Counted from the first letter of the stretch, positions 43,897-53,252 are shown. The stretch: DNA of 64,000 bases from Trypanosoma brucei (GCA_000002445.1 CP000071.1:160001-224000), one strand, 5' to 3'. The notes: generated from the letters alone by a model not told the origin. Program-made: numbers and translations.

Positions 43897-44634
43897 ACTT
43901 CACTCAACCCCTCCCCTCTTTTCCCTTGCGGCTACAGAAACAGTCCGCTAGAAATAATAATAATAATAATATTAATTGGAGGAAAATAATGGAGTAGTTG
44001 ACGAATGAGAAAACAGCAGACAGGGAAATAAAAGAAATACGTAAAAAGTTAATTAAATGATTTATTAACAACGAAAGTATCACACGCCGTTAGCTGAGCA
44101 AAGAAAGAAAAGAATCTGCCACAGACACGCGCACGCACGTACGACTCAAATAAAACCCAACTAACGGCGATGCAAAGAACAAACTCATTTACCGAAGATT
44201 ACATTCGTAAACTCAGGTTCGTTCTTTTTATTATTCGCGCTTATTTGATCCCTTCTTTATTTATTTCCCGTGACTCATCTCTCCCTATATCTTTTTTTTT
44301 CAAAAAAAAAAAATGAGTTCAGCTTTGCAGATGCCTGGCTGCCAACCACGTGCCGCAACATTATTTCCTCTCACTCCTCCCACATGCTCCGCGGTGGCGC
44401 CTCACGGGTTCCTCCCCACCCGTCAGCATTGCAAATGTATTCGATTCCTTTATTATTATTTTTTTTTCTTGTCCTTTAGTTTTTTGTATGTATGCAAGCA
44501 TGCACAGGCATTTATATTTAATTCGTTCAAAACCGATTTAGTGGGGCACGGAGGATGTTAACAGGAAACACTTTCACAGCCCACAACACCTTAGGGGAAA
44601 GAAAGAAAGGAGCGGAATAAAACTCGTTTTAGAA

Positions 44635-45396
44635 TTAGAACCGCCCCCGCTTCCGATCGTTATTATTTCCGTTAAAGTTTGGTTTCGACTTGTTCCGCGG
44701 GGGTTCCTGGACGCCCCTCTGCTGCTGTTTGCTCTGCTGGGCCACATGCCCTTCGGATTTGCCCACCTTTTGTTTCTTAGCGGGGGGTTCCTCGTCCTCA
44801 TCCTCCTCCTTTTCTTGATCATCATCATCCTCATCTTCATCTTCATCATCTTCATCTTCATCATCTTCGTCATCTTCATCATCTTCCTCATCTTCGTCAT
44901 CGTCATCGTCACTGTCGTCTGTACGATCTACGACCTGTTGGCGCTTCGTTGCTGCGTTACCGTTCTTTTTCCCGTCTGTGAGTGGTACGCCTGCCATGTC
45001 ATCACCATCATCCAATCCCGTGTCTTCCCCTTCTTCTTCCTCCTCCTCCTCCTCAGCGTTGTCGTATTCCCCACTTCCACTCAAAGCAGCGGAAAGCATT
45101 CCTTCCGACTCCTGCTGATACCCACAACAATGAAGAACAGCATTTCCCTTCACACGGAAGACAACTTCTTGTTCATAACCAAAAACGATATCGACGGGAG
45201 TTTGCATCAGTTGCTGAGAAACGTCAAGAGTGAGAAGAGAAAACGATTCACCATCAACTGTCACATACAACGTGCTGCGGCCCTTCACACCGTGCTTTAC
45301 AGAAACAACAGAAAGGTGAAATGAGTGATGCTTTTCCAGCACCAACTTGTGTTCCTTGCCCGGAACGACCTCGAAACCATGAAACATGGGCGCCAT
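44635..45396 (-). CDS. nucleoplasmin-like (HD2/FKBP-N-terminal type) domain protein with acidic tract and basic tail; NOPP44/46 paralog
   Basis: 253 aa. N-terminus MAPMFHGFEVVPGKEHKLVL...GNAVLHCCGYQ has the same pattern as the NOPP-array N-terminal domain and plant HD2 (MEFWGxEVxxG...GSVxxxGY). It is followed by a long D/E tract (nt ~44800-44935, GAT/GAA repeats) and a basic C-terminus (KKQKVGK...RKRGRF). Confidence 0.65.
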   Translation of the reverse strand: MAPMFHGFEVVPGKEHKLVLEKHHSFHLSVVSVKHGVKGRSTLYVTVDGESFSLLTLDVSQQLMQTPVDIVFGYEQEVVFRVKGNAVLHCCGYQQESEGMLSAALSGSGEYDNAEEEEEEEEGEDTGLDDGDDMAGVPLTDGKKNGNAATKRQQVVDRTDDSDDDDDEDEEDDEDDEDDEDEDDEDEDEDDDDQEKEEDEDEEPPAKKQKVGKSEGHVAQQSKQQQRGVQEPPRNKSKPNFNGNNNDRKRGRF

Positions 45397-46139
45397 TGCT
45401 TTCTCACTTTATGCTTTTCGGTAGAGCACAAACTTGAAAAAAATATCGGGTTTCAGTTACGAAAGTAAAAAAAACGAATAATCGGATAGAAGGGGAAAAC
45501 AAAGTAAAGGAGGGATTGAAACCAGCAATAAGAGTATTAAAGAAAAAAATTAGTAGCAGCAGGTCTTGGCAAACTGAACAGTTATCAATCAACCCAATAG
45601 GCCATAGCCACCTGCAAGAAAAAAGAAGGGAGGGTCAATAAACAGAAAACTAATGCGAAGAGAACACACACCACACGTCCAATGATTTAAAAAAAAACAA
45701 AAGAGAATTGCACAGGCACATGACCCCGCACTTCACTCAAACATTAACTACCTGAAGGAAAGAAAAAAACAACATACAACGAATTACGTCACACCCTATA
45801 ACATAACATCATCATCGAAAGTACAAGTTCGCATGCCTTAGTACAACCAAAAATTAAATTTTATATCGTTACAAATGGTCAACCAACCAAAAGACACGAA
45901 AATAGATTATTCAAGATGCAATTTATGAACAGTTTGAAACGCAATCAACAAAAACAGAGAAAGATTCGCAATAAGATTTAACATATCGACTAAAAACGAA
46001 AAAAAAAAGATCAATTAGTTGTGGCCTACAAGCAAACAACAACAAATTTACAAACGATGATAGAGCAAAAGGAACAACAATATTCCAAGAGGATTAATAA
46101 CTGAAGTGAAACAACAGGTCATATTACAAAGAGCGCCAG

Positions 46140-46199
46140 NNNNNNNNNNNNNNNNNNNNNNNNNNNNNNNNNNNNNNNNNNNNNNNNNNNNNNNNNNNN
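46140..46199. other. assembly gap (60 N)
   Basis: Run of n characters that interrupts a NOPP-family copy. Confidence 0.99.
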
Positions 46200-46559
46200 A
46201 GTCAAATGCACTGAGCCAGAACCCGTGGCGGAAAGAGTGGTTCCCTGCTCTGCGGTTAACACGAGGTCGATGCCCATTTGAAATAGGCTCCGCTTGGGGT
46301 CAAGCGTGGCAATGGTAAATTCCTTCCCCTGAAAGGATATCACAAGAGTAATAGCACCACTTGCATTCGCAGGCACAGCAATTTGTGTGAGACGAAGTAC
46401 GTGGTCTTCGGGTATCTTCGGTTTGACCTTCTGCCCGGCACTCACTTCAACACCGTAGAAACCCTTCACAAATGTTAAATGCAATACGCCTTTACTAATG
46501 GAAAATACAAAATGAATCGGAGACAACGGTGAAAGCATAGATAAGGGAAAGCGTAACAC
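46200..46559 (-). pseudogene. NOPP44/46-type array boundary copy (copy A): N-terminal domain only, canonical ATG lost, 3' part missing in assembly gap
   Basis: nt 46200-46470 are identical to the N-terminal-domain coding segment of the intact copy at 49640-49907. Homology ends exactly at the start codon (ATGGAG becomes GTGAAG). The upstream flank is unrelated. The ORF runs into the 60-N gap at 46140-46199. Confidence 0.45.
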
Positions 46560-46869
46560 TGACGTACGCTACCAAACAATAGGCAAACACAGGGAAAAAA
46601 CACAGTCACATTCAATGTGTCGAAACCTCTGTGTTTTTCTGTTACCAAGCCACCTCCATGACAGGCAAATCATGTCACATCACGAACGCTTTCATTTTCG
46701 AACGCTTAATTACCATTATAGAAGCCCAAATAATCATTATTTCTACCCCACCCAATCCCATTTATGTCTCAGTTTCTTCTTCGCTCGTAAAATATCTCTG
46801 CATTTAGATGCGTTACCGATGTTTTCGTTGCTAAAACACATACTAACAAATAACAACAAATATTTACCA

Positions 46870-47158
46870 CAACTGAAGGTAGAGAAATGTGGTCGCTCAA
46901 GCGGTGCATGTCAGTACAAGCACAAACATTAATAACAATATCACAATTTCTCCATGCCTCCACGTGCAACACAACATCCGAACATGAGGGGATATATCGT
47001 CATCACACGTATCAATCATAGAACACGAGTGTAATAAGAGGTTAGCCTCGTAGTCAAATGCATAAACGGGAATAATAATGAGGCATATATCACGTATTCC
47101 ATAAGATTACTCTCTCAGTTACAACAATGCGGCACATCACATGGCACATATATCATTT
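46870..47158 (-). repeat. conserved ~290-bp 3'-flank/3'UTR segment of NOPP-family genes (copy 1 of 3)
   Basis: Near-identical sequence recurs at 48632-48920 and 50294-50582, starting caactgaaggtagagaaatgtggtcgctcaagcggtgcatgtcagtacaagcac. Confidence 0.8.
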
Positions 47159-48259
47159 TTAGTAACGACCCCTCCCAGAGTTCCCGCCGCGGAATCCACC
47201 TCTATTCCAGACCGCATTTGTTCCGCCTCTTCCGCTGTAAGGGGGCAGAGTGCGAGATGCATCGTTTAGGTGGTGATTTGGTGGGAAAGGATAGTTGTTT
47301 CGGCTGGAATAGGGATGAAAACCCCTATTTATTGCAGCAAACCCCCTTCCTAACAAATTGCTTGACATTCCTTGCCACTCACCCCCGCTATACAAGTACC
47401 TTTCTTCATTGGTATATCCCCTTCTCATTTCACCATTTGCTTGCCCTCTATACCCGCCACCCATGTAACCTCTTCCCCTACTTGAATACCCACCTCTCCC
47501 GTACCCTCTGTTCATTCCCAACTGATCCGCTTCATGGATTGGTTCATTATAAATGGCACCGAAACCACCTTGGGAAGAAGTGCTATTTATTCTCTGACGT
47601 CCACGTTGCCTGAAAAAACCCTGATGAACACCGCCGTACCCTCCTTCACCGTTGTAACGAAAGTAACCTCCCCGACGATATCTATGCTCATCCACGTGTT
47701 GTTCGTTGTGAAACTCGACTCCTCCCTCATGCCTAATTTTTGAAGGTCGCTCTTCGCCCTTATCGCCTCTCTTCCCAATTTTTTCCACACCATCATCAAC
47801 GCTCACAATACCTTCAACATCATAGTCACTTTCGCTGGTATTGTTTGAACTTTGCACTGATGTTTTACAAGCGGGCGCTACGCCACGAAAAGGCGGCGGC
47901 GCCATTTTCTCGAATGGGACACCACTGCAAATCTCACCACCGCAACTTGACTCACCATCCGTAACATTCTCAATAGGTTGTATATATCCAGTCACATGCA
48001 CTGAGCCGTTGCCAGTGGCGGAAAGAATAATATTCTGCTCTGCTTTAATCACAAGGTCAATCCCCATTTGCGATACATTCCTCACAGGATCAAGAGAAGC
48101 GATAGTAAATTCTTTACCCTGAAGGGAAACGACAAGAGAGACGGCATCACTTGTATTCGCAGGCACAGCAATTTGTGTGAGACGAAGTACGTTACCCTCC
48201 GGTATCTCTGGAATAACTTTCTCCCCGACGCTCACTTCAACACCGTAGAAACCCTCCAT
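47159..48259 (-). CDS. NOPP44/46-family divergent paralog: nucleoplasmin-like N-terminal domain plus Tyr/Gly/Arg-rich (RGG/YGG) C-terminal region, no long acidic tract
   Basis: 366 aa. N-terminus [58 protein letters not shown]...[11 protein letters not shown]. The C-terminus has RGG/GYG repeats and ends ...[13 protein letters not shown], identical to the array copy. Confidence 0.75.
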   Translation of the reverse strand: [366 protein letters not shown]

Positions 48260-48483
48260 TGCTGCCGATTGGAATGTAATTTATCTATCACCATTGCAAG
48301 TAAAAAATAATATAAACGAAAAAAGAAAACAAAACGGCACATGTTTCACGAAGCAGAAGGAGAATAGTCAAAAAAATTCAAAAAAAAAGATGTTAGGGCA
48401 ACGTAGCGCCATCTGGACAACCAGAAGCCGCAACTTCAGAAACTCCGAACGATCATTCTTACGATAGTAACGCTAGGAAGAAT

Positions 48484-48920
48484 TCACTCTCATCATTATC
48501 CTTTGTTATCATTATTATTCTTATTCACGCTGATTCATCGTTTATATTTTCTCTCCTTATATTACTCAACCATTTCTTTAGTGTCCTCTAACGCTGTCCA
48601 TAATTTCAAGCGCAAGAAAAACGTTGCACTACAACTGAAGGTAGAGAAATGTGGTCGCTCAAGCGGTGCATGTCAGTACAAGCACAAACATTAATAACAA
48701 TATCACAATTTCTCCATGCCTCCACGTGCAACACAACATCCGAACATGAGGGGATATATCGTCATCACACGTATCAATCATAGAACACGAGTGTAATAAG
48801 AGGTTAGCCTCGTAGTCAAATGCATAAACGGGAATAATAATGAGGCATATATCACGTATTCCATAAGATTACCCTCTCAGTTACAACAATGCGGCACATC
48901 ACATGGCACATATATCATTT
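48484..48920 (-). repeat. NOPP array intergenic repeat unit (copy 2)
   Basis: 48484-48920 is near-identical to 50146-50582 (tcactctcatcattatcctttgttatcattattattcttattcacgctg...). Confidence 0.8.
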
Positions 48921-49907
48921 TTAGTAACGACCCCTCCCAGAGTTCCCGCCACGGAAGTTGCCGCGATTCCCGCCACGGAAGTTACCACGGTTTCCTCCAC
49001 GATCCCCGCCACGGAAGTTGCCACGGTTTCCTCCACGATCTCCGCCACGGAAGTTTCCACGGTTTCCTCCGTTACCACTTCGGTCTCCGCCGCGGAAGTT
49101 TCCACGGTTTCCTCCACGGTCTCCGCCACGGAACCCTCCGCGATTACCACCGTTACCGTTTCGGTCCCCACCACGGAACCCCCCGCGATTACCACCACGG
49201 AACCCTTGTTGCTCAGTGCGTTGCACTTTACTGGCTGGCTCATCATCATCATCGTCATCATCATCATCATCATCATCATCGTCATCGTCATCGTCATTAT
49301 CATTATCATTATCATCTTCTTCATCATCGTCATCGTCATCGTCATCGTCACTGTCGTCTTCATCGTAGGCTTCATCATCATCATCATTGTCGTCTTCGTC
49401 ACCCGCGTCAATTCCTTCATTGTCCTTTTCAATACCTTCCTCGTCATCGGATTCGTCGTCTCCATCGACGCCGTCACCATTTGCTTCATCGGAATTCTCT
49501 TCGCTTACAGGAAACTTGGCAGATTTCCCTCCTCTTTTCGGGGGAACTCCGTAGGATTCCATATCTTCAGCATCCACCTCATCGAGATCATCTTCCTCAT
49601 CAAAATCACTTCCATCATCAACAGGTTGAACGTATCCAGTCAAATGCACTGAGCCAGAACCCGTGGCGGAAAGAGTGGTTCCCTGCTCTGCGGTTAACAC
49701 GAGGTCGATGCCCATTTGAAATAGGCTCCGCTTGGGGTCAAGCGTGGCAATGGTAAATTCCTTCCCCTGAAAGGATATCACAAGAGTAATAGCACCACTT
49801 GCATTCGCAGGCACAGCAATTTGTGTGAGACGAAGTACGTGGTCTTCGGGTATCTTCGGTTTGACCTTCTGCCCGGCACTCACTTCAACACCGTAGAAAC
49901 CCTCCAT
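48921..49907 (-). CDS. NOPP44/46: NOPP44/46 nucleolar phosphoprotein (nucleoplasmin-like N-terminal domain, D/E acidic tract, C-terminal RGG box)
   Basis: 328 aa. N-terminus [57 protein letters not shown]...[11 protein letters not shown]. About 60-residue D/E tract encoded by (GAT/GAC)n at nt ~49237-49420. Tandem [14 protein letters not shown] repeats ending GRGRY. Confidence 0.8.
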   Translation of the reverse strand: [328 protein letters not shown]

Positions 49908-50145
49908 TGCTGCCGATTGGAATGTAATTTATCTACCACCATTGCAAGACAAAGTCAGGTATTGCGAGGAAAGAGAGAAAAGGTTACAAACTCCAAGGGG
50001 CAAAGAGTAAAAAATACAAAAAAAAACACCGCCATCGGACAAAACACACAAAATGAAAGTGTTATTACCCAAAAGTAAGTACCAGGAAACAGATTCCATT
50101 ATATGCAAAGCGACCTATCACCTTCTTCCACATCCTCTGTCCCTC

Positions 50146-50582
50146 CCACTCTCATCATTATCCTTTGTTATCATTATTATTCTTATTCACGCTGATTCAT
50201 CGTTTATATTTTCTCTCCTTATATTACTCAACCATTTCTTTAGTGTCCTCTAACGCTGTCCATAATTTCAAGCGCAAGAAAAACGTTGCACTACAACTGA
50301 AGGTAGAGAAATGTGGTCGCTCAAGCGGTGCATGTCAGTACAAGCACAAACATTAATAACAATATCACAATTTCTCCATGCCTCCACGTGCAACACAACA
50401 TCCGAACATGAGGGGATATATCGTCATCACACGTATCAATCATAGAACACGAGTGTAATAAGAGGTTAGCCTCGTAGTCAAATGCATAAACGGGAATAAT
50501 AATGAGGCATATATCACGTATTCCATAAGATTACCCTCTCAGTTACAACAATGCGGCACATCACATGGCACATATATCATTT
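50146..50582 (-). repeat. NOPP array intergenic repeat unit (copy 3)
   Basis: Same sequence as 48484-48920. Confidence 0.8.
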
Positions 50583-50606
50583 TTAGTAACGACACCTCCC
50601 AGAGTT
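50565..50606 (-). other. 3' end (C-terminal ...[8 protein letters not shown]-stop equivalent) of a further NOPP44/46 copy, truncated by assembly gap
   Basis: The sequence atggcacatatatcatttttagtaacgacacctcccagagtt matches the 3' end and downstream flank of the copies at 47140-47180 and 48902-48942, then runs into N's at 50607-50666. Confidence 0.6.
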
Positions 50607-50666
50607 NNNNNNNNNNNNNNNNNNNNNNNNNNNNNNNNNNNNNNNNNNNNNNNNNNNNNNNNNNNN
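50607..50666. other. assembly gap (60 N)
   Basis: Run of n characters. Sequence identity to the array is lost on the far side. Confidence 0.99.
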
Positions 50667-51317
50667 ACCTTCGCACAGCCTCTGTTGGGTGGGCAAACCT
50701 CTGGCAGAAGGGAGTGGATAAGATCTCTTGCGCCACGCACATCGTCCCACGACGTACAGTGAATATTGCCTTTCTCTTCATCCGTACTGTTGGGAAACTA
50801 AGCGCCTGCGATTATATACACCAACTCTGTGACTATTGTTGTCGGCGAAGCATCCCAGAAGGAGGTTCCTCATAAAGTTAACATTCACCTACAAATACGG
50901 CACGCTAAGGTGGGTGGTGAAGAAACGGGAAGGTCCGGTGACAGTAATTTGTCTACTTTTGAGGGAAATCACCAGATGTAACCGAACCACTTTGCATCTT
51001 TGGTGGCGGAGATCCGCATGATTCAGAGAACGCCTTTCATCGGTATTTTCGTCCCCACCTATTCAAACTATGGTTTAGCTTATCATTACTGTGGAAACCT
51101 TCTCCGTCTCGTTTTTCTAGAAACAGCAGTGTACTATGCTGTGCTTTCAGCGGGACAAGAGGTGGAGGGCCAAAGTACGTACCTTTTCAATTTATACACT
51201 ACATTATCTTGCAATGTGGGATGGTCCCACCATAATACAAGTTTTCTATTGTTTTGTTGGTGTTTTCGCGGAGCAATGACGAACCTTCACTTATTTTCGC
51301 GTTTGATCTATGCTCCC

Positions 51318-53252
51318 TCAGGTTTTCCACGTTATTGTGGAAAGCCAATTTTTGTGGTGGGCAACTATTACCTGAAGGAAACCATCCTCGACCAACAACC
51401 AAGAGAGACCAGAGATGATATTCTCTAATGGCTGGTGGGGTCGGTTGCCGTTCTCCAAGTGAACATTAGCGGTGTCGCTCCCCTCCTCTCGCTCCCGGTT
51501 GTTATCTGTGTTTTGGTCCGTCTCTCTTCTTAAATCGTCGGGTGCCTCCTCGTCAAAGTGATCTGATTCGGGGGGCCCCAATGGCACGGTACTGTGTACG
51601 GCATATGATTGTAGGTTACGGTCAAGGAGAACAACCTCATTAAGAGTTGTGCTGTGGCATAGCCAGTGACGCACAAAACTTCGCTGGTATTTCGTGTGCG
51701 AAGTCTTCTGTAGAACCGGTCCTCCCTCACAAATGAATGTTAGCGCCCCACTCGTCATGTTCCGTGCTAGAACGGTGCACACAAAGGCGGGACATGTGGC
51801 ATCGTAGGCCGCCGAGTGCCTGCACCTCCTAAACTCTTTGTAGCTTTTCGAACCACTGCCATCCTCTGTTAGCTCTGTGCTCGCCAAAACGCTCATGACT
51901 TTTCCATCTAATGTGCCAACGACCGTACCTACACTCGAATAAGTGTAGGTGGCGGAGGAAATGCCGCAGAAAAATCGCTTGGGTGGTGCCAACTCATACC
52001 CACAACCACCGTTTGTAGCGGACGCACACTTCACTACGACTGCGCGATCTTCGTACGGGGAAGAGCAAATGATAACCCCGTCAAGGCACTGCGAAAAGAG
52101 ACCTGACTTTAGCCAATAAGCACCAGAAGTTTCACTAATTTCCTCACCTCTGTTACGTCGTGCAGGGAACACCGAAGCAAGACGAGTCACCGGAAAGATA
52201 GATGATACAAGACCCGTTAGTGGAATATGGTGAACTATACCCGTACATATTCCGCAATCTTCCACATGAACGACAAGCACGCCGTGTAGAAGTGTTCCAA
52301 CAACCACAAAAGGCCGGTCAAAGATCTCGTTAACATCCAGTGGTACAACATGACGTGGAAAGGAGAATGAGGAAACGCACGATAGTACATTTGCCAGCAC
52401 TCGCGGAGCAATACTTTTACACTCAACACCAGGCCCCGTATTTATGAATACCAACCTCTCTTCACAGGGGAGGGACACCACAACACAGTTAGGAATCCGG
52501 TACAACCACAGACAACGGCAGGGGATAGAACTGAAGGAGAAAGTTCCTAGGGGGGAATGCAACGTCCCCTCCGATTCCGCTATCGGTTCACCGGTGGTCA
52601 GCGACACGTTATCGTCGTGTTGGCTGCCCGATTCTGCAAAACGGCGTACCATATCATTTACCTCCTCTACGTGTTGCAGCGTGCCGATAACTAATTGGGC
52701 ACGCGGCGATTGCGATAGCTGCACCTCGTACGGCCTCGTAGGTACTTGCCAGTACACACCTGATTCAGGCGAATCATCGTCCTCACGCCTCTCTGGTATC
52801 AACGGTAGTAGAAACCGTCGTCCCTCGGTTATAATCAACGCTATTAAACGATTCCCTCTGCGAAGACGGGGATCCCCCCGAAGCTCAGTTATTGTTGTAG
52901 GACCTATGTCCCACTGGCAGTGGTCAGTCTCAGCATCCCTTTGTGGAACGCTCTCCTCGGAAACTTTGGGCCAGCACCAACTAACGGCAAATAACGGGGT
53001 GAGGGTTGGCTTCATGGTTTGACGTACCATTTTGTCAAAGAGGAAAACCTCCTCCTCCTCATCTGGCGTTTCCACGGTGCCGCCGACACCTTCTCGGAGT
53101 GCATCGGCAACTTCTTGGCGAGGACGTGGGGAAAGTTTACGTCTACTATTCCCCCGTGCTAACTCTACAACACTCTCGCCACCGGTATCCTTAGTCATTT
53201 CAGAAGTGGCATGTGACGTACCCTTCCCCTCATTCATATCGTGTAGGGACAA
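51318..53252 (-). CDS. hypothetical protein (Cys-rich, acidic N-terminus)
   Basis: 644-aa ORF in PTU orientation. I recognise no family motif. Confidence 0.45.
   Translation of the reverse strand: MSLHDMNEGKGTSHATSEMTKDTGGESVVELARGNSRRKLSPRPRQEVADALREGVGGTVETPDEEEEVFLFDKMVRQTMKPTLTPLFAVSWCWPKVSEESVPQRDAETDHCQWDIGPTTITELRGDPRLRRGNRLIALIITEGRRFLLPLIPERREDDDSPESGVYWQVPTRPYEVQLSQSPRAQLVIGTLQHVEEVNDMVRRFAESGSQHDDNVSLTTGEPIAESEGTLHSPLGTFSFSSIPCRCLWLYRIPNCVVVSLPCEERLVFINTGPGVECKSIAPRVLANVLSCVSSFSFPRHVVPLDVNEIFDRPFVVVGTLLHGVLVVHVEDCGICTGIVHHIPLTGLVSSIFPVTRLASVFPARRNRGEEISETSGAYWLKSGLFSQCLDGVIICSSPYEDRAVVVKCASATNGGCGYELAPPKRFFCGISSATYTYSSVGTVVGTLDGKVMSVLASTELTEDGSGSKSYKEFRRCRHSAAYDATCPAFVCTVLARNMTSGALTFICEGGPVLQKTSHTKYQRSFVRHWLCHSTTLNEVVLLDRNLQSYAVHSTVPLGPPESDHFDEEAPDDLRRETDQNTDNNREREEGSDTANVHLENGNRPHQPLENIISGLSWLLVEDGFLQVIVAHHKNWLSTITWKT

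What the first reader, a model, noticed from the sequence alone, without database searches (positions are those of the whole stretch)
46119..46559. Array-boundary NOPP copy has lost the canonical ATG exactly where homology ends
Copy A matches the intact copy nucleotide-for-nucleotide through the N-terminal domain. At the start codon ATGGAG is replaced by GTGAAG, and the 5' flank is unrelated. The only in-frame upstream Met would add a 37-aa hydrophobic extension (MLRFPLSMLSPLSPIHFVFSISKGVLHLTFVKG). Either this is a decaying boundary pseudogene, as is typical at the edge of tandem arrays undergoing gene conversion, or it is an N-terminally extended isoform with different targeting. Its 3' half lies in the N gap, so completeness is unknown.
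Basis: seen in the sequence. Interest (0 to 1): 0.5.

Follow-up and report, generated by a model that had tools for sequence, protein, structure and literature searches.

The report
Known truncated NOPP44/46 boundary gene fragment
This is Tb927.8.740 of Trypanosoma brucei, a fragment of a nucleolar-protein gene already annotated as truncated. It sits at the downstream edge of the NOPP44/46 gene cluster, has no usable start codon, and is cut off after its first domain, so it is an ordinary array-edge relic.

Summary
The window is T. b. brucei TREU927 chromosome 8 (window position + 160,000 = Tb927_08_v4). The flagged ORF is Tb927.8.740, annotated "nucleolar RNA-binding protein, truncated".

**Confirmed:**
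- On the minus strand, CDS nt 2-3 and 5-269 are identical to NOPP44/46-1 (Tb927.8.760).
- ATGGAG is GTGAAG.
- The 397-nt 5' flank is unrelated.

- The "M" of MLRFPL... is a GTG read with the bacterial code. The only in-frame ATG is at 46538 (25 residues in place of Met-Glu).
- Nothing appears to be hidden in the N60 run. Three other Trypanozoon assemblies join the two sides seamlessly, giving ...SVHLT|LALFVI-stop.

**Published data:**
- Kolev 2010 maps the 5'-most spliced-leader site inside the ORF, downstream of that ATG.

**Conclusion:** this is a start-less, 3'-truncated array-edge relic, probably kept near-identical to its neighbour by gene conversion. Its 5' flank carries the poly(A) sites of Tb927.8.750.

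**New here:** T. vivax has a syntenic 89-aa terminal copy broken within about five codons of the same point.

Already known; low interest.

The parts
46200..46469 (-). Copy A' homology block: CDS nt 1-270 equivalent of NOPP44/46-1. It encodes the nucleoplasmin-like (NPL) domain up to ...SGSVHLT (codon 90). It is part of Tb927.8.740.
   Evidence: Identical to 49638-49907 except at nt 1 and nt 4. 77% identical to gene C. Pfam NPL PF17800 E=1e-16, profile positions 1-90 of 94.
46464..46469 (-). GTGAAG in place of the canonical ATGGAG. This is either the unconverted edge of the homology block or the first bases of the unrelated flank.
   Evidence: Alignment of all copies in four assemblies. GTGAAG is present in the window, in DAL972 (L001 11791) and in OVI (L002 432).
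46536..46538 (-). The only in-frame upstream ATG. It is the annotated start of Tb927.8.740 (chr8 206538) and of the DAL972 orthologue (P0001, 119 aa).
   Evidence: Kolev Table S1 and Vasquez suppl. 9 give the CDS as 206538..206119.
46523..46523 (-). Published 5'-most spliced-leader addition site of the Tb927.8.740 transcript, 15 nt downstream of the annotated ATG.
   Evidence: Kolev 2010 Table S1. Caution: in this sequence it is preceded by TG, not AG. The same paper's sites for Tb927.8.770 and Tb927.8.710 are preceded exactly by AG.
46470..46865 (-). Flank U: a unique 396-397-nt spacer between repeat R and copy A'. Its upstream part carries the mapped poly(A) sites of Tb927.8.750. Its downstream part carries polypyrimidine tracts and candidate AG acceptors (exon starts at 46568, 46558, 46494, 46489).
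   Evidence: 100% identical in TREU927, DAL972 and OVI. Absent from the GCA_003543875.1 locus. No other homologue. Tb927.8.750 poly(A) coordinates 206644/206613.
46866..47194 (-). Repeat R after gene C: the last 36 nt of the CDS plus 293 nt of 3' UTR. It is shared at about 99% with the copies after gene B and at the upstream array edge.
   Evidence: Self-comparison.
46140..46199 (.). N60 run. It appears to be a zero-length scaffold join, not missing sequence.
   Evidence: The flanking bases are contiguous in L001 (DAL972), in L004 (GCA_003543875.1) and in OVI contig L005, which starts 21 nt before the junction.
46119..46139 (-). Six unrelated codons (LALFVI) plus a TGA stop. This is the end of the annotated truncated ORF and the start of the unique downstream sequence.
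   Evidence: DAL972 protein P0001 ends ...SVHLTLALFVI.
45397..46118 (-). T-rich unique intergenic sequence and 3' UTR of the Tb927.8.740 transcript, up to the ATG of Tb927.8.730. The 3'-most poly(A) site is at 45536.
   Evidence: Kolev Table S1 gives the 3' end as 205536. No similarity to any array sequence.
48921..49907 (-). Gene B = Tb927.8.760, NOPP44/46-1 (328 aa: NPL domain, acidic region, RGG repeats). It is the likely conversion partner of A'.
47159..48259 (-). Gene C = Tb927.8.750, NOPP44/46-2 (366 aa), a diverged paralogue. Its similarity to B runs from -42 to CDS nt 290, then resumes only in the last 36 nt and in R.
44635..45396 (-). Tb927.8.730, a 253-aa distant NPL-domain paralogue immediately downstream of A'.
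50147..50606 (-). Partial unit R' at the upstream array edge: the last 24 nt of a NOPP CDS, then the 3' UTR repeat and its 143-nt extension.
   Evidence: The junction with upstream unique sequence is seamless in OVI contig L007, in L006 and in L001.
50607..50666 (.). Second N60 run, also zero-length in the other assemblies.

Best explanation
Copy A' is Tb927.8.740, a non-functional relic at the downstream edge of the T. brucei NOPP44/46 cluster on chromosome 8. Only the first 269 nt of a NOPP44/46 coding sequence survive, which is almost exactly the nucleoplasmin-like domain.

**At the 3' side.** The fragment is fused directly to unique intergenic DNA. The N60 run hides nothing, and the frame stops after six foreign codons. 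The acidic and RGG regions that make a NOPP44/46 protein are absent.

**At the 5' side.** Similarity to the intact genes stops within the first four bases of the CDS, so there is no ATG.

**Why the interior is intact (inferred).** It is kept virtually identical to the neighbouring NOPP44/46-1 gene by gene conversion, which can act only inside the shared block. That would explain the sharp limits of the identity, and why the only two differences sit at the very 5' edge of the block.

**Transcription and processing.** The region lies inside the polycistronic unit. The flank U carries the poly(A) sites of the upstream Tb927.8.750 mRNA (shown). A trans-spliced, polyadenylated Tb927.8.740 RNA exists. 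Its mapped 5' end lies downstream of the only in-frame AUG. The first AUG it contains is out of frame (8 codons), and the next in-frame AUG is Met64 (32 codons).

**Shown:** sequence anatomy, junctions in other assemblies, annotation, published SL, poly(A) and ribosome data.
**Inferred:** gene conversion as the homogenising process, and non-functionality.
For: **Identity of the locus.**
- Three window proteins are exact TREU927 entries (AAZ12844.1, AAZ12846.1, AAZ12849.1) on a 2,481,190-nt contig.
- Published v4 coordinates of Tb927.8.730.740.760 and .770 equal window positions + 160,000.

**Annotation.** The gene is called 'nucleolar RNA-binding protein, truncated' in TREU927 and in DAL972 (P0001).

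**Anatomy.**
- Differences from gene B are only at nt 1 and nt 4.
- Both flanks are unrelated to the array.
- Pfam NPL covers profile positions 1-90 of 94; there is no acidic or RGG part.

**Empty gap.**
- DAL972 (L001) and GCA_003543875.1 (L004) read straight through both N60 positions.
- OVI de novo contig L005 begins TCTGGCTCAGTGCATTTGACT|CTGGCGCTC.
- OVI contig L007 crosses the other N60 by about 700 nt.

**The U-A' junction is real.** U plus GTGAAG is identical in three assemblies.

**Exchange between copies.**
- At 49659/46221, TREU927 B carries the A' base (T), whereas B in DAL972 and in L004 carries C.
- The L004 terminal fragment is a C/A/C/A mosaic: 43, 13, 5 and 1 informative sites.
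- Jackson 2007 describes this array (Tb64a) as having mixed dynamics, with one divergent orthologous copy and the remaining copies monophyletic.

**Expression.**
- Kolev 2010 Table S1 gives the 5'-most SAS at 206523, inside the ORF, and poly(A) at 205536.
- Tb927.8.750 poly(A) coordinates 206644/206613 lie inside U.

**AUG scan** of the processed RNA.
Against: - TREU927 itself carries N60 at the junction. I could not inspect TREU927 reads, so hidden extra array sequence in that strain is not formally excluded.
- OVI contig L002 runs from U through GTGAAG into a full-length NOPP44/46 body. This may be a wrong path through the 269-nt repeat.
- The published SAS at 46523 is preceded by TG, not AG, in this sequence. 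Canonical AGs at 46570/46569 and 46560/46559 would include the in-frame AUG.
- Vasquez 2014 report many footprints on the CDS and a ribosome release score of 184. Multimapping to Tb927.8.760 can explain this.
- The identity runs right up to both block edges. Classical two-sided gene conversion does not easily produce that, so a non-homologous junction at nt 4/5 is equally possible.
- The predicted 119-aa product still folds as a nucleoplasmin-like core.
Confidence: 0.85

Rival explanations
1. N-terminally extended isoform. Translation starts at ATG 46538 and yields a 119-aa protein with a 23-residue net hydrophobic extension on a tail-less NPL domain, possibly with different targeting.
For: - The frame is open from 46538 to the TGA at 46119, and both TREU927 and DAL972 annotators chose this ATG.
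- Canonical polypyrimidine-AG acceptors giving exon starts at 46568 and 46558 would keep the ATG as the first AUG.
- The extension is hydrophobic (mean Kyte-Doolittle 1.0).
- The model keeps the NPL fold.
Against: - Kolev 2010 lists the gene as having a misannotated start, with the 5'-most SAS downstream of this ATG.
- Jensen 2014 found no unique footprints, and reads stop before the ORF end.
- An open 30-codon stretch containing one ATG is not unusual by chance (my estimate: roughly 0.1-0.2).
- The extension is modelled as disordered or low-confidence: pLDDT 38 and 61 for the first two 10-residue blocks.
- The whole U element is deleted in GCA_003543875.1.
Confidence: 0.04
2. Collapsed assembly. 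A' is the 5' end of a full-length, ATG-less NOPP44/46 gene whose remainder, and perhaps further units, lies in a real gap at 46140-46199. The true terminal fragment would then be a different copy.
For: - TREU927 carries N60 on both sides of the 4.4-kb array contig.
- OVI contig L002 continues from U-GTGAAG into a complete CDS.
- Copy number varies: there are two B-type genes in L004.
- The DAL972 paper warns that the assembled copy number of arrays can be arbitrary.
Against: - The contig to the right of the gap starts at exactly the first unique base, and the array contig ends at exactly CDS nt 269. Abutting them reproduces the junction read through in DAL972 and L004, and present at the start of OVI contig L005.
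- The 21 nt preceding the junction in L005 are A/B-type.
- L002 can be explained as a wrong path through the 269-nt block that A' and B share.
Confidence: 0.07
3. Assembly chimera. The U-A' junction is an artefact that joins unrelated DNA to a NOPP fragment.
For: It lies in a short contig bounded by two N runs within a repeat array.
Against: The same 397-nt U and the same GTGAAG junction occur, 100% identical, in TREU927, in Sanger-based DAL972 and in the Illumina de novo OVI assembly. Mapped Tb927.8.750 poly(A) sites fall inside U.
Confidence: 0.01
4. A conserved small gene. The array-terminal NPL-only ORF is a functional, tail-less nucleoplasmin-like subunit retained in salivarian trypanosomes.
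For: - T. vivax has an 89-aa NPL-only ORF with a canonical ATG at the same syntenic position, ending at the equivalent of codon 90.
- The L004 terminal fragment has ATGGAG and would encode about 96 aa.
- The model keeps the pentamer-type fold, with LALFVI forming the last strand.
Against: - Gene conversion from intact neighbours keeps such a fragment open without any selection.
- TREU927, DAL972 and OVI lack an ATG.
- There are no unique footprints.
- The conserved T-G-Y motif after the last strand is lost.
- T. cruzi has no such copy.
Confidence: 0.03

Closest known systems
Tb927.8.740 / Tbg972 orthologue CBH13082.1, 'nucleolar RNA-binding protein, truncated' (GeneDB/TriTrypDB annotation)
   Same: It is the same locus. 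The annotated CDS 206538..206119 equals window 46538..46119. The DAL972 product P0001 is 99% identical and ends ...SVHLTLALFVI.
   Different: Nothing differs. The annotation reads through the N60 run and uses the upstream ATG, which Kolev 2010 flagged as misannotated.
NOPP44/46-1 (Tb927.8.760) and NOPP44/46-2 (Tb927.8.750), trypanosome nucleolar phosphoproteins required for 60S subunit biogenesis
   Same: A' shares the N-terminal nucleoplasmin-like domain, identical to NOPP44/46-1 from CDS nt 5 to nt 269 and 77% identical to NOPP44/46-2.
   Different: A' has no ATG, no acidic region, no RGG repeats, a different 5' flank and a different 3' end.
Tandem array Tb64a ('nucleolar RNA-binding protein') of Jackson 2007, and partial or divergent copies at array edges in general
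   Same: The array shows mixed dynamics, with some copies homogenised and one divergent orthologous copy. Gene conversion tracts in T. brucei arrays often span or stop at start and stop codons and UTRs.
   Different: The paper passages I retrieved with a term search (not a full reading) do not describe the truncated terminal copy, its loss of the ATG or its conservation in T. vivax.
Nucleoplasmin-like (NPL, PF17800) oligomerisation cores: plant HDT1-4, FKBP43/53 N-domains, NPM1/NO38
   Same: The model of the 119-aa ORF superposes on these cores (Foldseek E about 5e-7 and weaker; target-normalised TM 0.81-0.87 to HDT2/FKBP43).
   Different: All characterised members carry acidic or other tails. 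This fragment ends at the last strand, and there is no evidence that it is made.

Membership tests
NOPP44/46 nucleolar RNA-binding protein (functional member) | N-terminal nucleoplasmin-like domain | tested here: met
   Pfam PF17800, 61.9 bits against a cut-off of 23.4, profile positions 1-90 of 94. The fold is confirmed on the model.
NOPP44/46 nucleolar RNA-binding protein (functional member) | Central acidic region and C-terminal RGG repeats (the nucleic-acid-binding part) | tested here: not met
   The ORF stops six codons after codon 90. The downstream 740 nt are T-rich non-coding sequence with no similarity to B or C.
NOPP44/46 nucleolar RNA-binding protein (functional member) | Canonical initiation codon (ATG GAG GGT TTC TAC) in the mature mRNA | tested here: not met
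   GTGAAG in three assemblies. The published 5'-most SAS lies downstream of the only in-frame ATG.
NOPP44/46 nucleolar RNA-binding protein (functional member) | Evidence of translation attributable to this copy | tested here: not met
   [quoted passage not shown] This is taken from the literature; I did not recompute it.
Array-edge truncated pseudogene maintained by gene conversion | Position at the end of a tandem array, with a partial unit abutting unique sequence | tested here: met
   The upstream edge also has a partial unit, R'.
Array-edge truncated pseudogene maintained by gene conversion | Within-genome identity to a neighbour higher than expected for an old copy, plus mosaic or shared polymorphisms | tested here: met
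   265/265 identity to B in TREU927. There is a shared T at 46221/49659. The L004 terminal fragment is a mosaic. The T. vivax terminal copy is 99.75% identical to its own neighbours.
Array-edge truncated pseudogene maintained by gene conversion | Direct demonstration of conversion events (tract mapping in a population or pedigree) | not testable with these tools
   This needs multiple long-read haplotypes.
N-terminally extended or alternatively targeted isoform | An in-frame AUG upstream of the domain, present in the trans-spliced mRNA | tested here: inconclusive
   The ATG at 46538 exists, but the published 5'-most SAS (46523) excludes it. That SAS lacks an AG in this sequence, and canonical AGs upstream exist.

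The most novel reading that the evidence does not exclude
The terminal, tail-less NPL-only ORF is not junk. It is a small subunit conserved in salivarian trypanosomes: 89 aa with an ATG in T. vivax, about 96 aa with an ATG in one T. equiperdum-type assembly, and start-less or upstream-AUG in TREU927 and DAL972. It would co-assemble with NOPP44/46 pentamers and tune how many acidic/RGG tails each pentamer carries.
Probability: 0.04. Interest if true: 0.45.

Novelty: already known. Interest (0 to 1): 0.1.

Why it matters
It matters little for biology.

Three practical points follow:
- The two N60 runs in this part of the TREU927 reference appear to be empty joins, so reads and annotations can be carried across them.
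- Reads on Tb927.8.740 are mostly mis-assigned Tb927.8.760 signal. This inflates its apparent expression and ribosome release score.
- The unique flank U is the distal 3' UTR and poly(A) region of NOPP44/46-2, so deleting the 'pseudogene' could affect that gene.

The conserved position and break point of the terminal copy in T. vivax is a small illustration of how array-edge fragments can persist for a long time when neighbours keep overwriting them.

Tried and rejected
- **Exact-protein look-ups.** Gene B (328 aa) and the 251-aa and 253-aa forms of Tb927.8.730 found no contigs. TREU927 DNA itself could not be fetched, although its proteins are in the collection.
- **Homology searches.** Searches with A' and with B returned few trypanosome proteins and no second U-type copy.
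- **Origin of U.** Sensitive blastn against the window, all fetched loci, T. vivax and T. cruzi found nothing above chance. An Rfam scan of 44000-51500 had no hit at E<=0.1.
- **Shared break point.** I tried to show that the T. brucei and T. vivax break points share a downstream flank. The intergenic DNA is unalignable, so common origin rests only on synteny and codon position.
- **Other species.** The only T. congolense contig is 2.5 kb, too short. T. theileri has N gaps exactly where a third copy could sit, so it is inconclusive.
- **Literature.** The Nilsson 2010 supplements do not list the gene. The Jensen 2005 NOPP44/46 paper is not held. Matches to Tb927.8.740 and Tb927.8.760 in Jackson 2007b and in the DAL972 paper were four-digit gene IDs.
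- **Coinciding contig breaks.** I first thought DAL972 shared contig breaks with the window. That was an artefact of BLAST alignments stopping at the window's N runs.

Full report
**What the window is**

- Three proteins encoded in the window are exact matches to T. b. brucei TREU927 entries on a 2,481,190-nt contig. They are the 253-aa AAZ12844.1, the 366-aa AAZ12846.1 and the 1025-aa AAZ12849.1.
- Published Tb927_08_v4 coordinates for Tb927.8.730.740.760 and .770 equal window coordinates plus 160,000.
- All genes in the region lie on the minus strand.
- The flagged ORF is Tb927.8.740. It is annotated 'nucleolar RNA-binding protein, truncated', with CDS 206538..206119, which is window 46538..46119.
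- Its T. b. gambiense DAL972 orthologue (P0001, CBH13082.1, 119 aa) has the same name.
- The neighbours are Tb927.8.760 (NOPP44/46-1; 49907..48921, 'gene B') and Tb927.8.750 (NOPP44/46-2; 48259..47159, 'gene C').

**Anatomy of the cluster**

In the direction of transcription the order is:

1. Unique sequence.
2. N60 (50666-50607).
3. A partial unit R': the last 24 nt of a NOPP CDS plus its 3' UTR.
4. Gene B.
5. Repeat R.
6. Gene C.
7. Repeat R (47194-46866).
8. A unique 397-nt spacer U (46865-46469/70).
9. Copy A' (46469-46200).
10. N60 (46199-46140).
11. Unique T-rich sequence.
12. Tb927.8.730 (45396..44635), a distant NPL-domain paralogue.

**Checking the observation**

The core observation holds.

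- A' differs from B only at CDS nt 1 (G for A) and nt 4 (A for G). That gives GTGAAG for ATGGAG, and nt 5-269 are identical.
- Both differences falling in the first four of 270 positions has P about 1.7e-4 if placement is uniform.
- U shows no similarity to the 5' flanks of B or C. Ungapped identity is 23/60 and 22/60, against 47/60 for B vs C. U matches nothing else in the window.

Two details in the finding are wrong.

- The peptide 'MLRFPLSM...' starts at a GTG (46559). The finding's coordinates are those of an ORF call made with the bacterial table. A TAG lies four codons upstream. The only in-frame ATG is 46538, so the possible extension is MLSPLSPIHFVFSISKGVLHLTFVK, 25 residues in place of Met-Glu.
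- The 3' half is not in the gap, as the next section shows.

**The N60 runs are empty**

- The DAL972 chromosome (L001/L003) and assembly GCA_003543875.1 (L004/L006) read straight through both positions without a single extra base. From memory only, GCA_003543875.1 is T. equiperdum IVM-t1.
- The de novo T. equiperdum OVI contig L007 crosses the upstream N60 position by about 700 nt.
- OVI contig L005 begins 21 nt before the downstream junction: TCTGGCTCAGTGCATTTGACT|CTGGCGCTC.
- In the window, the array contig ends at exactly CDS nt 269. The next contig starts at exactly the first unique base.
- A' is therefore truncated after codon 90. The frame continues LALFVI-TGA, as in the DAL972 protein.
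- An early impression that DAL972 shares 'contig breaks' with the window was only BLAST stopping at the Ns.

**Is the U-A' junction real?**

Yes. U and GTGAAG are 100% identical in TREU927, DAL972 and OVI contig L002.

L002 continues from A' into a full-length NOPP body. In a short-read assembly this can be a wrong path through the 269-nt block that A' shares with B, so I give it little weight.

**Evidence for sequence exchange**

- At the synonymous site 46221/49659, TREU927 B carries the A' base (T). B in DAL972 and both B copies in L004 carry C.
- In DAL972, A' differs from B at three further interior sites.
- In L004 the terminal fragment has the 5' flank and ATGGAG of gene C. It is C-type for nt 1-189 (43 informative sites), A/B-type for nt 198-233 (13 sites), C-type for nt 246-252 (5 sites) and A-type at nt 265. 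It then reaches the same junction, and U is gone. This is what recombination between C and A' would give.
- Jackson 2007 lists this array (Tb64a) among those with one divergent orthologous copy and otherwise monophyletic copies.

**Why the identity stops at the ATG**

- B and C, which are old paralogues, are alignable only from -42 to CDS nt 290, and then again in the last 36 nt plus R. What the family shares is essentially the NPL-coding block. Pfam NPL covers residues 4-93 of B and C, and profile positions 1-90 of 94 in A'.
- A homology-dependent process can homogenise only that block. This explains limits at the start codon and at the end of the domain, and differences confined to the edge.
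- I cannot distinguish this from a non-homologous junction lying between nt 4 and nt 5, with the 'TG' matching by chance (1 in 16).
- Identity running right up to both edges is not what simple two-sided conversion predicts. This step is inferred.

**Expression**

- Kolev 2010 Table S1 lists Tb927.8.740 among ORFs whose start is misannotated because the spliced-leader site maps inside the ORF. The 5'-most site is 206523 (window 46523), 15 nt past the ATG. The 3'-most poly(A) is 205536.
- From such an RNA, the first AUG (46366) is out of frame and opens 8 codons. The next in-frame AUG is Met64, giving 32 codons.
- Vasquez 2014 report many CDS footprints and a release score of 184. Reads shared with Tb927.8.760 would produce this.
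- One caveat remains. The same paper's sites for Tb927.8.770 and .710 are preceded exactly by AG in the window, but 46523 is preceded by TG. Canonical AGs at 46570/69 and 46560/59 would retain the ATG. The isoform reading is therefore improbable rather than impossible.
- Kolev's poly(A) coordinates for Tb927.8.750 (206644/206613) fall inside U. U therefore carries the distal 3' UTR of that gene.
- By the known coupling of polyadenylation to downstream trans-splicing in trypanosomes, U probably also carries the processing signal.

**Other species**

- In T. vivax (L008) the syntenic locus has two full NOPP-like genes. An 89-aa NPL-only ORF with a canonical ATG follows (P0006), and then the orthologues of Tb927.8.730 and Tb927.8.720.
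- That terminal copy is 99.75% identical to its own neighbours from -148 to CDS nt 253. It then diverges (AATHVT-stop against AGAVHLTGY), which is within about five codons of the T. brucei break.
- A gap-free T. cruzi assembly has two full copies and no fragment.
- T. theileri is inconclusive because of gaps.
- A truncated terminal copy is thus likely old within salivarian trypanosomes and co-evolves with its neighbours in each species. Common origin of the break is inferred from position only.

**Could it still be a protein?**

A model of the 119-aa ORF (mean pLDDT 84) keeps the nucleoplasmin-like sandwich. VHLTLALFVI forms the last strand and the extension is poorly ordered. The model matches plant HDT and FKBP43 NPL domains and NPM1 cores.

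A tail-less subunit is therefore not excluded structurally. It lacks an AUG in the mapped mRNA, it lacks unique footprints, and it has lost the conserved T-G-Y motif.

**Verdict**

- The 'boundary pseudogene' reading is right and the 'extended isoform' reading is not supported.
- The locus and its truncated status are already annotated and have been discussed in transcriptome and ribosome-profiling papers.
- Interest is low.

Noticed in passing
window 50147-50666: The upstream edge of the array is also a partial unit. Unique DNA abuts the last 24 nt of a NOPP CDS plus its 3' UTR (R'), and the N60 at 50607-50666 is zero-length in three other assemblies. Kolev 2010 lists a 'new transcript' Tb8.NT.12 with poly(A) at 210091/210067 (window 50091/50067). 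That fits this orphan 3' UTR being processed as an RNA of its own.
   Followed up: partly
L008 8001-8270 (T. vivax SOPI01000326.1): An 89-aa NPL-only terminal copy with a canonical ATG sits at the same syntenic position as Tb927.8.740. It is 99.75% identical to its neighbours up to CDS nt 253 and breaks within about 5 codons of the T. brucei break.
   Followed up: partly
L004 7439-7708 (GCA_003543875.1 CM010679.1): The terminal fragment is a C/A/C/A mosaic with gene C's 5' flank and an intact ATGGAG. U is absent and there are two B-type genes. This is structural polymorphism of the array within Trypanozoon.
   Followed up: partly
window 49659 and 46221: TREU927 NOPP44/46-1 carries T at a synonymous Gly codon, like the truncated copy. 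NOPP44/46-1 in DAL972 and in GCA_003543875.1 carries C. This may be conversion from the fragment into the functional gene.
   Followed up: no
window 46523-46525: The published 5'-most spliced-leader site of Tb927.8.740 is preceded by TG, not AG, in the TREU927 sequence. Other sites from the same paper in this window are preceded exactly by AG. The cause could be a strain polymorphism, a non-canonical acceptor or a mapping artefact.
   Followed up: partly
window 49272-49280 and 49345-49350: The acidic region of NOPP44/46-1 differs from DAL972 by in-frame 9-nt and 6-nt indels (328 vs 323 aa). The exact 328-aa TREU927 product is not in the protein collection although its neighbours are.
   Followed up: no
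L008 4868-5983 (T. vivax): The first T. vivax NOPP-like gene (371 aa) reads out of frame through the RGG region (…VATVAMMATAAAS…), unlike the second copy (352 aa). This is either a frameshift in the assembly or a second damaged copy.
   Followed up: no
window 46613-46644: The mapped poly(A) sites of Tb927.8.750 lie inside the spacer U. Its 3' UTR therefore diverges from that of Tb927.8.760 after the shared 293 nt.
   Followed up: partly
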